In this document: piece after piece, positions 12,528 to 60,767 of the stretch
How the letters are laid out: each line of letters opens with the position of its first letter
Position numbering within the stretch: position 1 is the first letter of the stretch
Source of the DNA: Candidatus Dojkabacteria bacterium
GTDB taxonomy: Bacteria > Patescibacteriota > Dojkabacteria > SC72 > JAFGCJ01
NCBI GenBank assembly: GCA_016929645.1
Contig: JAFGIK010000003.1
Location: 6,913 to 70,912 of the forward strand
DNA: 64,000 bases
Reading direction: 5' to 3'
The notes under the pieces: model-generated
Database searches by the model: none
What the model saw: only the letters and a program-made list of their open reading frames with translations
Told to the model about the DNA's origin: nothing
Made by a program: the position numbers and the translations under genes

Positions 12528-13310
12528 ATGAATCATACTTTTGTTATTCCTGCATACAATCGACCAAAATACTTAGCTGAATGTATAAGATCTCTTCAAA
12601 ATCAAAACATGAAGATTCCTATAATTATATCTACTTCAACTCCAAACGATTATGTTCGGAGAATTGCAAAAAAGTATTCAGTAACGCTTATAGAGCACAA
12701 TCAAGGTGGAAGTATTGCTAAAGATTGGAATTATGCCTACAAGATTGCTGATGCGAAATATGTGACGCTCGCACACGAGGATGATATATATCTACCTAAT
12801 TATTCTGAAGCAATTAAATATCATTGTTTAAGGTATGATCCATTATTAATTTCGACAAAATATCTCGATTATGTCGATGATATGCCTCGACGGACATACG
12901 CTCATATAATTAAGAATTTTATGAACTCGGTATTTTACTATCGAAAGAAAATTGGAAGTACGTTTTGGAAAAATTTTTCACTTATGTTTGGAAACTCAAT
13001 TTGTTGTCCGAGTGTGACATATAATAAAGAGATGATAGGGGATTTTAAATTCAGTAATAAATATAAAGTAAACTTAGATTGGGATGCCTGGGCTAGATTA
13101 TCAAAATTTAGCGGCTCATTTTTGTATGTAAATAGAGTCCTGATGTACCATAGAATCCATTCTAATGCCCAGACAAACATTGGTATTCATGATTCTACTC
13201 GATATCTTGAGGATAAAGAAATGTTTGAATATTTCTGGCCAGTACCGATTGCCAGATTGCTTTCATTTTTTTATAAATACTCATATACTAGCTCAACATC
13301 AGATCATTAA
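12528..13310 (+). CDS. family 2 glycosyltransferase
   Basis: 'FVIPAYNRPKYLAECIRSLQNQ' is a GT2 N-terminal signature, followed by 'AHEDDIY' (DxD-like). Confidence 0.75.
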   Translation: MNHTFVIPAYNRPKYLAECIRSLQNQNMKIPIIISTSTPNDYVRRIAKKYSVTLIEHNQGGSIAKDWNYAYKIADAKYVTLAHEDDIYLPNYSEAIKYHCLRYDPLLISTKYLDYVDDMPRRTYAHIIKNFMNSVFYYRKKIGSTFWKNFSLMFGNSICCPSVTYNKEMIGDFKFSNKYKVNLDWDAWARLSKFSGSFLYVNRVLMYHRIHSNAQTNIGIHDSTRYLEDKEMFEYFWPVPIARLLSFFYKYSYTSSTSDH

Positions 13311-25829: not shown

Positions 25830-25903
25830 GGACCCTTAGCTCAGCTGGCTAGAGCACACGATTCACATTCGTGGGGTCACTGGTTCGATTCCAGTAGGGT
25901 CCA
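25830..25903 (+). tRNA. tRNA-Val (anticodon CAC), CCA not encoded
   Basis: Acceptor GGACCCT/AGGGTCC, D-arm 'GCTCagctggctaGAGC', anticodon stem CACGA/TCGTG with loop 'ttCACat', T-arm 'ACTGGttcgattCCAGT', discriminator A. Folded manually. Confidence 0.9.
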
Positions 25904-25947
25904 ATGAGGTCAAAATCCAAAACACATTTGGATTTTGACCTCATTGG
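25901..25947 (+). terminator. 21-bp perfect hairpin immediately 3' of tRNA-Val followed by T-rich tract
   Basis: 'ccaatgaggtcaaaatccaaa-acaca-tttggattttgacctcattgg' then 'tttcttt'. Left arm overlaps the last 3 nt of the tRNA. Confidence 0.5.
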
Positions 25948-26063
25948 TTTCTTTATGAGCGAACCAAGGTTCGCAACTGGAGGCCCGAGAATCCGAGCTA
26001 GCGAAGGATGATCGGCAGCCGACAGGAGTACTTCGAATACGAGAGATCACATGAATGAGAAGT

Positions 26064-26085
26064 GATTCCAGTAGGGTCCAATGAG
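26064..26085 (+). repeat. 22-nt direct repeat of the tRNA-Val 3' end (copy 2; copy 1 at 25887-25908)
   Basis: 'gattccagtagggtccaatgag' occurs at 25887-25908 (T-loop G57 through discriminator plus 5 nt) and again at 26064-26085, bracketing a ~155-nt insert. This is an att-site-like duplication. Confidence 0.8.
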
Positions 26086-46021: not shown

Positions 46022-46050
46022 AAAAAGAGGGCGGAATTCCGCCCTCTTTT
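46022..46050. terminator. bidirectional intrinsic terminator (12-bp GC-rich stem, AATT loop, flanking A/T runs)
   Basis: 'aaaaagagggcgg-aatt-ccgccctctttt' sits between convergent genes 45180-45992 (+) and 46077-46931 (-). Symmetric A5/T4 flanks allow function on both strands. Confidence 0.75.
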
Positions 46051-52853: not shown

Positions 52854-53390
52854 ATGGCTGTTTATCGGGATGAGGTTGCAATCCTAAAATCAAGAGATAT
52901 TAACGAATATGACAAGATCGTTACGTTATTTGGCCGTTGGCATGGCAAGTTTAGTGCCATTGCAAAAGGTGTTCGAAGGCTTTCAAGCCGAAAGCGAGGC
53001 CATCTTGAGACTTTTAATCTTTGCCGAGTCAGTTGTGCCCAGGGTAAGAGTCTGGATTTAATTCTTGAGGCACAATCGTACTTTTCCATTGATACCAAGG
53101 ATACAAAATATGATGAATATGAAAGGGTTGGGTTTGCAGGTTTTGTTGTAGATAAATTTGTCCCTGACAATGTGCAGGAGGGTAAGATTTTTGATATGTG
53201 GACTGACTTTATTCAGGGGCAACACGGCAAGACCGAGACTATCGATTTTATTCTAAATATCCTTTTGTTGCAGGGTTTTGTAAGCGAAGAAAATATCGAA
53301 AAGTTGAGACTCGGTCAGGTGAATCAAGTGAATCAGCTGACCTTTGAAAAAATAAAGTTATTTGTTCAAAAAATTATCCATGAAATTTAG
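52854..53390 (+). CDS. recO: DNA repair protein RecO (compact form, no C-terminal zinc finger)
   Basis: 'AVYRDEVAILKSRDINEYDKIVTLFGRWHGKFSAIAKGVRRLSSRKRG' matches the RecO N-terminal OB-fold consensus (LRSRDYGEADRIL.LFTREHGK...AKGARR..SR). Confidence 0.7.
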   Translation: MAVYRDEVAILKSRDINEYDKIVTLFGRWHGKFSAIAKGVRRLSSRKRGHLETFNLCRVSCAQGKSLDLILEAQSYFSIDTKDTKYDEYERVGFAGFVVDKFVPDNVQEGKIFDMWTDFIQGQHGKTETIDFILNILLLQGFVSEENIEKLRLGQVNQVNQLTFEKIKLFVQKIIHEI

Positions 53391-53545
53391 TTTTTACTGT
53401 GATTTTAGTTGAGAATTGATGTTTTGTTTGCTTGATTTCGTTACCTTTGATATGTTTTGCCATAAATGCTTTTCTGCTTTATAATTGCTTTGTTACCAGG
53501 TTTACTGCCTGTTTGCTTCATTATACAAACGAAAAGTCATTTTTC

Positions 53546-53618
53546 GGGCGCGTAGCTCAACTGGCAGAGCAAGCGACTCTTAATCGCTAGGTTCAGGGTT
53601 CGATTCCCTGCGCGCCCA
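53546..53618 (+). tRNA. tRNA-Lys (anticodon CTT), CCA not encoded
   Basis: Acceptor GGGCGCG/CGCGCCC, D-arm 'GCTCaactggcaGAGC', anticodon stem AGCGA/TCGCT with loop 'ctCTTaa', T-arm 'CAGGGttcgattCCCTG', discriminator A. Folded manually. The minus-strand ORF 53537-53791 is spurious. Confidence 0.9.
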
Positions 53619-53653
53619 AGGGAAAAGAGATCAAAATTGATCTCTTTTCCCTT
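53618..53653 (+). terminator. 16-bp perfect hairpin starting at the tRNA-Lys discriminator
   Basis: 'aagggaaaagagatca-aaat-tgatctcttttccctt'. Confidence 0.45.
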
Positions 53654-53759
53654 GAAATGTATGTAATCGAACAAGTTCGTAGGGACGTATCCCGAGAGCG
53701 AAGCGATCGGAAGATACGACCACATGCAATTCAGAGACGAGTGTAATGAGTCCTGAATT

Positions 53760-53784
53760 GATTCCCTGCGCGCCCAAGGGAAAA
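53760..53784 (+). repeat. 25-nt direct repeat of the tRNA-Lys 3' end (copy 2; copy 1 at 53602-53626)
   Basis: 'gattccctgcgcgcccaagggaaaa' at 53602-53626 (T-loop G57 through discriminator plus 8 nt) and again at 53760-53784. Confidence 0.8.
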
Positions 53785-60730: not shown

Positions 60731-60767
60731 GCGTGGAGGTCGGGGGATTTTCCCCCGACCTCCACGC
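60731..60767 (+). terminator. intrinsic terminator, 16-bp very GC-rich hairpin
   Basis: 'gcgtggaggtcggggg-atttt-cccccgacctccacgc', 36 nt after the protease stop; stands out against AT-rich flanks. Confidence 0.7.

What the first reader, a model, noticed from the sequence alone, without database searches (positions are those of the whole stretch)
25830..26085. tRNA-Val followed by a hairpin, a conserved ~115-nt element and a 22-nt duplication of the tRNA 3' end: a miniature att-flanked insert
Directly visible:
- 'gattccagtagggtccaatgag' (T-loop G57 through discriminator plus 5 nt) occurs at 25887-25908 and again at 26064-26085.
- The ~155 nt between the copies begins with a 21-bp perfect hairpin (25901-25947) plus T-tract.
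- It also contains a 7-bp stem 'gcgaacc-aa-ggttcgc' and a GC-rich core 'cccgagaatccgagctagcgaaggatgatcgg...atacgagagatcacatgaatgag'.

A duplicated tRNA 3' end is the classic footprint of site-specific integration into a tRNA gene (established for tyrosine/serine integrase elements). Here the bracketed DNA is far too small to encode anything, and an equivalent, apparently homologous unit sits at tRNA-Lys (53546-53784). That points to a family of miniature, non-autonomous tRNA-targeting elements, or to a conserved tRNA-trailer structured RNA. I know of neither as a described class.
Basis: partly seen in the sequence, partly recalled or inferred. Interest (0 to 1): 0.7.

Follow-up and report, generated by a model that had tools for sequence, protein, structure and literature searches.

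The report
tRNA-linked repeat-like trailer RNA modules
Both tRNA genes in this stretch of a Candidatus Dojkabacteria (CPR) genome are followed by a hairpin, a folded GC-rich ~110-nt segment and an exact copy of the tRNA's own 3' end, which is the layout of the little-studied "tRNA-linked repeats" of E. coli rather than a new kind of mobile insert.

Summary
tRNA-Val(CAC) and tRNA-Lys(CTT) are the only tRNAs in the window. Each is followed by a perfect 21- or 18-bp hairpin, a GC-rich ~110-nt core, and an exact 22- or 25-nt copy of the tRNA 3' end that starts at T-loop G57.

The two cores are related. Single-sequence covariance models pick each other out as the top non-self hit over 128 kb. All 56 scored base-pair cells pair, with 8 compensatory pairs. 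In both units a 5' segment pairs with the copied T-stem strand (helix P1) and tracks the tRNA's identity.

This layout is not undescribed. It matches the E. coli tRNA-linked repeats (TLR; Rfam RtT; rrnB T1-rrB-T2). I confirmed there the same T-loop repeat boundary, the P1 helix and the tRNA-terminator-core-repeat order. Sequence homology to E. coli TLRs is not demonstrable.

The att-insert reading has little support. No integrase or transposase domain was detected in the 64 kb, the repeat lengths differ, and no phage or viral counterpart exists.

Three distantly related Dojkabacteria have plain tRNAs at the syntenic sites. The best reading is a co-transcribed, processed tRNA-trailer RNA module, a TLR analogue in a CPR bacterium. 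Its function is unknown.

The parts
25830..25903 (+). tRNA-Val(CAC) gene, no encoded CCA
   Evidence: ARAGORN; Rfam tRNA 66.4 bits
25887..25908 (+). Val repeat copy 1: T-loop G57 to the discriminator (17 nt) plus 5 nt of trailer
   Evidence: the repeat finder, 22/22 identical to 26064-26085
25901..25947 (+). Val hairpin T1: 21-bp perfect stem starting in the last 3 nt of the tRNA, followed by TTTCTTT. It looks like a leaky terminator and/or a processing stem.
25959..25974 (+). Val small hairpin (GCGAAC-CAAG-GUUCGC)
   Evidence: sequence; MFE fold; helix 1 in the model alignment
25976..25982 (+). Val P1 5' strand (ACUGGAG). It pairs with UUCCAGU at 26066-26072, which is the end of the copied T loop plus the T-stem 3' strand.
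25982..26020 (+). Val hairpin A: GGC-CCGA-[GA]-AUCC-loop-GGAU-[GA]-UCGG-CA-GCC, with a tandem G.A internal loop
   Evidence: MFE and centroid folds; compensatory pairs against the Lys copy
26030..26063 (+). Val hairpin B (ACUUC/GAAGU) enclosing the conserved ACGAG...AAUGAG motif. Its 3' strand ends at the repeat.
26064..26085 (+). Val repeat copy 2 (the 3' end of the unit)
53546..53618 (+). tRNA-Lys(CTT) gene, no encoded CCA. A promoter-like site (TTGCCA-17-TATAAT) lies at 53457-53485.
53602..53626 (+). Lys repeat copy 1: T-loop G57 to the discriminator (17 nt) plus 8 nt of trailer
53617..53654 (+). Lys hairpin T1: 18-bp perfect stem starting in the last 2 nt of the tRNA, with no T tract after it
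53668..53679 (+). Lys small hairpin (CGAA-CAAG-UUCG)
53678..53685 (+). Lys P1 5' strand (CGUAGGGA). It pairs with UCCCUGCG at 53763-53770 in repeat copy 2.
53686..53718 (+). Lys hairpin A: CGUAUC-CCGA-[GA]-GC-GAA-GC-[GA]-UCGG-AA-GAUACG
   Evidence: MFE and centroid folds
53727..53760 (+). Lys hairpin B (CAAUUCAG/CUGAAUUG) enclosing ACGAG...AAUGAG. Its last base is the first base of the repeat.
53760..53784 (+). Lys repeat copy 2 (the 3' end of the unit)
   Evidence: reproduced in Logan contig L151

Best explanation
Each locus is a tRNA transcription unit with a structured trailer module of the tRNA-linked-repeat (TLR) type.

Proposed mechanism:
1. Transcription from the tRNA promoter passes, at least partly, the long hairpin that abuts the tRNA 3' end. 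The Lys hairpin has no U tract. The Val hairpin has one and may act as a leaky terminator.
2. The next ~110 nt fold into a small hairpin plus two hairpins (A and B). These are closed by helix P1, whose 3' strand is the copied T-stem strand of the same tRNA.
3. The module therefore ends in a mimic of the tRNA's T-stem and acceptor 3' strand.
4. That mimic gives the trailer the same 3'-end determinants as the tRNA. The tRNA 3'-end-processing machinery could then release a discrete RNA of about 110-135 nt.

Shown here: the anatomy, the relatedness of the two units, P1 and hairpin covariation, the GC anomaly, and the correspondence with E. coli TLRs.

Inferred only: read-through, processing at repeat copy 2, and any function of the released RNA.

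The units are TLR-like in design but are not demonstrably homologous to E. coli TLRs.
For: - Both of the window's two tRNAs carry the unit. A covariance model finds no further copy elsewhere in the window or in the 8 kb beyond it.
- Models built from one copy each find the other copy as the top non-self hit, full length, over 128 kb. The scores are 16.0 bits (E 0.06) and 19.4 bits (E 0.0035), against background hits of 11.8 bits or less.
- In the model alignment, 56/56 cells pair and 8 pairs show changes on both sides. Only 4/500 shuffles reach this, and slid controls give 0-1.
- The P1 5' strand matches each tRNA's T-stem strand: ACUGGAG/UUCCAGU for Val and CGUAGGGA/UCCCUGCG for Lys.
- The two highest-GC 110-nt windows in the 33%-GC window are exactly these two cores plus repeat (0.527).
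- E. coli TLRs share the defining layout. The literature describes 18-19 nt of the upstream tRNA or 5S 3' end at the unit's 3' end, a dual-terminator arrangement in rrnB with 150-bp repeat spacing, transcription by read-through of T1, and processing to defined ends (PMC8144298).
- On MG1655 sequence I confirmed three things: the repeats start in the T loop (A58/A59); lysQ and lysV have the order tRNA, terminator hairpin, core, repeat; and P1 helices of 8-10 bp track Tyr, Lys and Arg identity.
Against: - There are only two copies, so the covariation evidence is thin. The A5 alignment was also fitted to the model.
- Almost all pairs are Watson-Crick (one G.U in P1 of Lys), so DNA-level hairpins are not excluded.
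- No expression data exist.
- No terminator-like site is predicted after repeat copy 2.
- Sequence homology to E. coli TLRs fails in profile tests.
- The function of TLRs is itself unknown.
- Three other Dojkabacteria lack the unit at syntenic tRNAs. It is therefore a lineage-specific gain or loss and not essential.
Confidence: 0.55

Rival explanations
1. Miniature non-autonomous integrative element, or the scar of one. A site-specific recombinase acting in trans inserted a ~160-180-bp module carrying its own copy of the tRNA 3' end plus a terminator. The direct repeats would then be attL and attR.
For: - A direct repeat of a tRNA 3' end is the classic integration footprint (established knowledge).
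- The hairpin lies wholly inside the putative element, as expected if the element restores the tRNA end and brings a terminator.
- Syntenic tRNA-Val and tRNA-Lys in three other Dojkabacteria have no hairpin, core or repeat.
- The repeats are perfect although the two cores have diverged.
Against: - No integrase, recombinase or transposase domain was found in any scanned ORF of 100 aa or more in the 64 kb.
- One family of cores sits at two different tRNAs with unrelated repeat sequences. That would need two specificities or a homology-guided enzyme.
- Repeat lengths of 22 and 25 nt rule out a fixed-length target duplication.
- Identity begins at G57, inside the T loop. A crossover across the whole T loop between the T-stem arms is therefore not possible as the sequence stands.
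- No viral or phage sequence has the repeats or cores.
- An interior segment complementary to the copied T-stem strand in both units is not predicted by this model.
- The E. coli counterparts sit inside tRNA operons and in tandem arrays.
Confidence: 0.2
2. Neutral by-product of local DNA rearrangement at tRNA genes, with no function of its own. Examples are remnants of unequal crossing-over in former tandem arrays, or replication template switching. The repeat would be kept identical by gene conversion from the tRNA.
For: - The E. coli tyrT array is 3.14 copies of a 178-bp unit that ends with the partial copy. In that sense the present units are '1.1 copies'.
- Long perfect palindromes and perfect repeats are features a DNA-level process could produce.
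- The unit is absent in relatives.
Against: - Both units start the repeat at the same tRNA position, and both keep all helices through 8 compensatory changes.
- GC is about 50% in a 33%-GC genome, where neutral DNA should decay towards AT.
- The cores show no significant similarity to the 5' parts of their tRNAs, so they are not decayed tRNA duplicates.
Confidence: 0.15
3. Cis-regulatory leader of the downstream genes (the ZIP transporter and the unknown 230-aa protein), or an antisense RNA from the minus strand that pairs with the pre-tRNA 3' end.
For: - The units lie 170 and 140 nt upstream of plus-strand ORFs.
- No terminator is predicted after repeat copy 2.
- A minus-strand transcript of copy 2 would be complementary to the pre-tRNA 3' end including its trailer.
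Against: - The two downstream genes are unrelated.
- No Rfam riboswitch or leader family matches.
- Promoter-like sites lie after the Lys unit rather than within it.
- The one G.U pair in P1 favours the plus strand.
Confidence: 0.05

Closest known systems
E. coli tRNA-linked repeats (TLR): RtT/rttR units of tyrT-tyrV (Rfam RF00391), the TLRs of the lysT, valU-lysV and serV-arg operons, and rrA, rrB and rrF between T1 and T2 of rrnA, rrnB and rrnD
   Same: - The unit lies directly 3' of a tRNA (or 5S) gene on the same strand.
- The unit ends with an exact copy of the 3' end of that RNA, starting inside the T loop (E. coli A58/A59; here G57).
- Repeat spacing is similar (E. coli 133-178 nt; here 158 and 177).
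- A terminator-like hairpin sits between the gene and the core (rrnB T1, lysQ, lysV).
- Helix P1 pairs a 5' segment with the copied T-stem strand and changes with tRNA identity.
- One core family is attached to different tRNAs.
Sources: PMC8144298.
   Different: - No demonstrable sequence homology. A TLR HMM and a tyr-type HMM find nothing in the window. The CPR covariance model finds no E. coli TLR. Rfam RtT does not hit.
- Only weak hints of relatedness exist: Val against the tyrV unit gives z 3.5-4.6, and each unit shares an 11-mer with the E. coli set at p of about 0.03.
- The inner hairpins differ.
- The repeat lacks CCA, which is not encoded here, and runs 5-8 nt into the trailer.
- T1 is a very long perfect stem that overlaps the repeat.
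- The units are single, not tandem.
- The host is a CPR bacterium, not an enterobacterium.
tRNA-gene-targeting integrative elements (tyrosine-integrase islands and prophages with attL/attR repeats of the tRNA 3' end)
   Same: A direct repeat of the tRNA 3' portion brackets the extra DNA, and the tRNA gene stays intact.
   Different: The bracketed DNA is only 155-180 bp with no gene. No integrase was found in the window. The same core sits at two tRNAs with different repeats. No inverted core sites lie around a T-loop crossover. An internal helix pairs with the repeat.
3' external transcribed spacer sRNAs of tRNA operons (e.g. 3'ETS-leuZ of glyW-cysT-leuZ)
   Same: A functional small RNA is cut out of a tRNA primary transcript downstream of the last tRNA (described in the introduction of PMC8144298).
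   Different: 3'ETS-leuZ is not described there as carrying a copy of the tRNA 3' end. Its target pairing with sRNAs has no counterpart tested here.

Membership tests
tRNA-linked repeats (TLR), defined by architecture | Located immediately downstream of a tRNA or rRNA gene, on the same strand and in the same operon | tested here: met
   The units start at the last nucleotides of tRNA-Val and tRNA-Lys on the plus strand. Operon membership is inferred from promoter-like sites upstream of the tRNAs.
tRNA-linked repeats (TLR), defined by architecture | The 3' end of the unit is identical to the 3' end of the upstream RNA gene (18-19 bp in E. coli) | tested here: met
   22/22 and 25/25 identical, of which 17 nt are tRNA (G57 to the discriminator). 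The E. coli reference values were re-derived.
tRNA-linked repeats (TLR), defined by architecture | A helix between a 5' segment of the unit and the copied T-stem strand (P1 of Rfam RtT), tracking tRNA identity | tested here: met
   Val 7 bp and Lys 8 bp, with 3 compensatory positions between them. E. coli Tyr 10 bp, LysW 10 bp and ArgV 8 bp.
tRNA-linked repeats (TLR), defined by architecture | Several units per genome with a related core but tRNA-specific 3' ends | tested here: met
   Two of the two tRNAs in the window carry the unit, and the cores are related. The rest of the genome could not be reached.
E. coli TLR / Rfam RtT (RF00391), defined by sequence | Sequence and structure homology to the conserved core (AACGUUGC-N-GCAACG-GCCCGAAGGGCGAG...) | tested here: not met
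   No RtT hit at E<=10. nhmmer with TLR HMMs found nothing at either locus. The R3 model found no E. coli TLR. Pairwise tests were mostly not significant.
E. coli TLR / rrB-type sRNA | [quoted passage not shown] | not testable with these tools
   No expression data are available for this organism. These properties are reported for rrA, rrB and rrF only (PMC8144298).
Integrative element in a tRNA gene | Integrase or recombinase gene within or next to the element | tested here: not met
   The element has no ORF of that kind. Pfam scans of 46 window ORFs of 100 aa or more (the rest are the POR operon, seen, or overlap larger ORFs on the opposite strand) gave no integrase, resolvase, transposase or reverse-transcriptase domain.
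Integrative element in a tRNA gene | attL/attR direct repeats of the tRNA 3' part | tested here: met
Integrative element in a tRNA gene | Empty site in close relatives, or a free or circular form with attP | tested here: inconclusive
   Plain syntenic tRNAs exist only in relatives with about 50% RecO identity. No close relative is present in any collection. No viral attP-like match was found.
Transposon or casposon with target-site duplication | Fixed-length target duplication and terminal inverted repeats | tested here: not met
   The repeats are 22 and 25 nt. Both start at the same tRNA position but end at different ones. The unit ends are not inverted repeats of each other.

The most novel reading that the evidence does not exclude
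TLR-type modules may be a general class that recurs across distant bacterial phyla (Proteobacteria and CPR). The module is a structured insert placed at T-loop position 57-59 of a tRNA gene, with regeneration of the 3' end and a helix that pairs with the copied T-stem strand.

They could be spread by an unrecognised, tRNA-guided insertion or conversion mechanism. Alternatively they could be selected repeatedly because a minihelix-like 3' end recruits the tRNA-processing or CCA-adding machinery to a regulatory RNA.

The weak Val-RtT similarity and the shared 11-mers would then be traces of common descent.
Probability: 0.15. Interest if true: 0.75.

Novelty: new variant of a known kind. Interest (0 to 1): 0.45.

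Why it matters
tRNA-linked repeats have been known in E. coli since 1978 and still have no accepted function or origin. In the paper read here their conservation is described only within Enterobacteriales.

The same design now turns up in a reduced CPR genome, built from unrelated sequence. The design is a hairpin, a folded core, a helix with the copied T-stem strand, and a repeat starting in the T loop. This argues that the layout itself is selected or is produced by a general mechanism. It is then less likely to be an accident of enterobacterial history.

It also suggests a simple genome-wide search rule: a tRNA 3'-end copy 100-250 nt downstream, plus a complementary 5' segment. That rule could show how widespread such trailer RNAs are. 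Finally, it warns annotators not to read every duplicated tRNA 3' end as an integration scar.

Tried and rejected
- **Known RNA family for the core.** Rfam gathering and E<=10 scans gave only tRNA hits and spurious microRNA-hairpin hits.
- **More copies by DNA pattern.** This is the yield expected by chance for an 18-base pattern with two wide gaps, and the loci were not examined individually. A stricter pattern gave one chance hit, inside a GC-rich coding region, in metagenomes and none in viral contigs.
- **More of the source genome.** It is not in genome contigs. Several exact-protein look-ups were not on record. One Logan contig extended 8 kb past the window but holds no tRNA.
- **Orthologous sites.** Only distant Dojkabacteria could be reached. 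Their syntenic tRNAs are plain.
- **Core as a decayed copy of the cognate tRNA.** There is no similarity to the 5' parts of the tRNAs.
- **Conserved peptide.** The short Arg-rich ORFs in the two cores (18 and 29 aa) are in different frames relative to the shared motifs. The likeness of the Lys ORF to E. coli Tpr (29 aa each) is not supported at nucleotide level, with 35/97 identities.
- **Homology to E. coli TLRs.** HMM, covariance-model and BLAST tests were negative or marginal.
- **Phage or viral attP.** No matches.
- **Assembly artefact.** Rejected for the Lys locus.

Full report
**What is there**

The window is low-GC (about 33%). It comes from a Candidatus Dojkabacteria (CPR) MAG: the RecO protein at 52854-53390 is identical to an NCBI protein of that name on an 82,183-bp contig. 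ARAGORN and Rfam find two tRNAs, tRNA-Val(CAC) at 25830-25903 and tRNA-Lys(CTT) at 53546-53618. Neither encodes CCA.

Both tRNAs are followed by the same arrangement:
- A perfect hairpin that begins in the last 2-3 nt of the tRNA. The Val hairpin is 25901-25947 with 21 bp. The Lys hairpin is 53617-53654 with 18 bp.
- About 105-116 nt of GC-rich sequence.
- An exact copy of the tRNA 3' end. For Val this is 22 nt at 25887-25908 and 26064-26085. For Lys it is 25 nt at 53602-53626 and 53760-53784.

Both repeats start at T-loop G57 and extend 5 or 8 nt beyond the discriminator into the 5' arm of the hairpin.

An independent Logan assembly of the same sequencing run reproduces the complete Lys unit, with no mismatch over 10.4 kb.

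**Are the two units related?**

Strict local alignment of the cores does not beat shuffles (133/1000 reach the observed score). Alignment with permissive gaps does (z 3.6-4.7, 0-4/1000).

The better test uses structure. I built one covariance model from each copy alone and searched all 64 kb on both strands with filters off.
- The Lys model's best non-self hit is 25958-26074 (16.0 bits, E 0.06).
- The Val model's best non-self hit is 53665-53768 (19.4 bits, E 0.0035).
- Both hits are full length and on the plus strand. Background hits score 11.8 bits or less.

In the resulting alignment all 56 cells pair. Eight pairs differ on both sides between the copies: 3 in P1, 4 in hairpin A and 1 in hairpin B. 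Only 4/500 shuffles reach this, and slid controls give 0-1. With two sequences and a model-fitted alignment this is supportive, not conclusive.

The common fold has four elements:
- A small hairpin with a CAAG loop.
- Helix P1.
- Hairpin A, in which a CCGA/UCGG stem is interrupted by a tandem G.A loop.
- Hairpin B, which encloses ACGAG...AAUGAG and ends exactly at the repeat.

The 3' strand of P1 is the copied T-stem strand of the tRNA. Its 5' strand differs between the loci accordingly: ACUGGAG/UUCCAGU for Val and CGUAGGGA/UCCCUGCG for Lys.

The two highest-GC 110-nt windows in the whole 64 kb are these two cores plus repeat, at 0.527 against a mean of 0.339. That is typical of structured RNA in an AT-rich genome.

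No other copy exists in the window, in the 8 kb beyond its right end, or in related genomes.

**Context and relatives**

Pfam scans covered 46 of the window's ORFs of 100 aa or more. The ones left out are the pyruvate:ferredoxin oxidoreductase operon, identified through, and ORFs overlapping larger ones on the opposite strand. The scans show ordinary CPR genes, including SecA, RecO, glycosyltransferases, type IV pilus genes and proteases. None has an integrase, resolvase, transposase or reverse-transcriptase domain.

The closest RecO relatives are only about 50% identical. Three such Dojkabacteria genomes have tRNA-Lys(CTT) a few kb downstream of recO. One also has tRNA-Val(CAC) downstream of secA. 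All lack the hairpin, core and repeat. The unit is therefore lineage-specific. At this evolutionary distance, gain and loss cannot be told apart.

The source genome is not in the genome collection. Closer relatives are absent from every collection searched.

**Comparison with what is known**

The layout is that of the E. coli tRNA-linked repeats (TLR). According to PMC8144298:
- There are 22 TLRs at ten loci.
- In rrnB, the 5S 3' end is followed by terminator T1, the rrB sequence, a second copy of an 18-bp stretch 150 bp after the first, and terminator T2.
- rrA, rrB and rrF are transcribed by read-through of T1 and processed to defined ends.
- The authors propose that the repeated 3' end is an RNase E processing signal.
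- TLRs otherwise have no known function.

I checked this on MG1655 sequence.
- tyrV is followed by 178-bp units, each ending in AATCCTTCCCCCACCACCA.
- lysT, lysW, lysY, lysZ, lysQ, lysV, argQ, argZ and argV carry units ending in ATCC plus their own 3' end.
- The repeat therefore starts in the T loop at A58/A59, one or two positions from the G57 seen here.
- lysQ and lysV have the order tRNA, terminator hairpin, core, repeat.
- The consensus structure of Rfam RtT pairs a 5' segment with the repeat. That helix is 10 bp for Tyr, 10 bp for LysW and 8 bp for ArgV, each matching its own tRNA.

In design, then, the Dojkabacteria units work like TLRs.

They are not demonstrably members of the E. coli sequence family.
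- HMMs built from twelve TLRs, or from the tyr-type units only, find nothing at either locus.
- The combined CPR model finds no E. coli TLR.
- Rfam RtT gives no hit at E<=10.
- Of 16 pairwise tests, only Val against the tyrV unit stands out, at z 3.5 locally and 4.6 globally. After correction for multiple tests this is marginal.
- Each unit shares one 11-mer with the E. coli set, ACCAAGGTTCG and GAGCGAAGCGA, at p of about 0.03 each.

I record these as hints only.

**Mechanism**

The best-supported account is a co-transcribed trailer module. The hairpin after the tRNA is a leaky terminator and/or a processing stem. The Val hairpin has a U-rich tail and the Lys hairpin has none. The core folds into the P1-closed domain. 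The copied T-stem and acceptor 3' strand gives the RNA the same 3'-end determinants as the tRNA, so it would be trimmed at or just after the discriminator of copy 2. The steps from transcription onward are inferred by analogy with rrB. They are not shown here.

The att-insert model explains the repeats and the absence in relatives. It does not explain several other facts:
- The same core family sits at two tRNAs with unrelated repeats.
- The repeat lengths are unequal.
- Identity starts inside the T loop.
- No recombinase or viral counterpart was found.
- An interior strand tracks the copied T-stem.

A neutral DNA-rearrangement origin fits poorly with the preserved helices and the GC content. 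A decayed tRNA duplicate is not supported.

**Verdict**

This is a new variant of a known but poorly understood kind. Interest is moderate. The main value is that the TLR design recurs in a very distant, reduced genome with unrelated sequence, which makes the class worth a systematic search.

Noticed in passing
window 60731-60767 and 46023-46050: Two further long perfect hairpins lie in intergenic DNA. One is a 17-bp GC-rich stem after the 1172-aa trypsin-like protease gene, with no T tract. The other is a 14-bp palindrome between convergent genes. Together with the two tRNA hairpins they are the only long perfect hairpins I found in the 64 kb (the scan itself omitted the Val hairpin), so this genome may use such stems as terminators.
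   Followed up: partly
L002/L003 12904-13176 and tRNA-Lys 13167-13242: In a related Dojkabacteria genome (GCA_054920395.1), a 90-aa GIY-YIG-domain ORF ends inside the first bases of tRNA-Lys(CTT). This is a homing-endonuclease-like gene abutting the syntenic tRNA that is plain there.
   Followed up: no
window 53580-53585 (L001 end, L151 start): The Logan assembly of SRR13394437 breaks inside tRNA-Lys. One contig ends at 53580 and the next starts at 53585. The MAG contig bridges the gap.
   Followed up: partly
window 53657-53746 and 25955-26011; L143 488-577 (-): The Lys core holds a 29-codon Arg-rich ORF (MYVIEQVRRDVSRERSDRKIRPHAIQRRV). It has the same length and character as the E. coli 'protamine-like' Tpr ORF inside rttR (MRSFDQGSTRAPARERCRRQRPEGRSAQR). 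The Val core has only an 18-codon ORF in another frame. The resemblance is probably a by-product of GA/CG-rich structured sequence.
   Followed up: partly
window 25963-25990 vs E. coli tyrV RtT unit: A permissive BLASTN of the E. coli RtT unit against the whole window gives its best hit, at a non-significant E of 2.2, on the Val element's small hairpin (CGAACCAAGGTTCG...). Shared 11-mers with E. coli TLRs occur in both units.
   Followed up: yes
L005 1-10528: In GCA_016932785.1, secA, tRNA-Val, the pyruvate:ferredoxin oxidoreductase genes and recO lie within 10 kb. In this window the secA-tRNA-Val and recO-tRNA-Lys blocks are 28 kb apart, separated by a type IV pilus and two-component gene block.
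   Followed up: no
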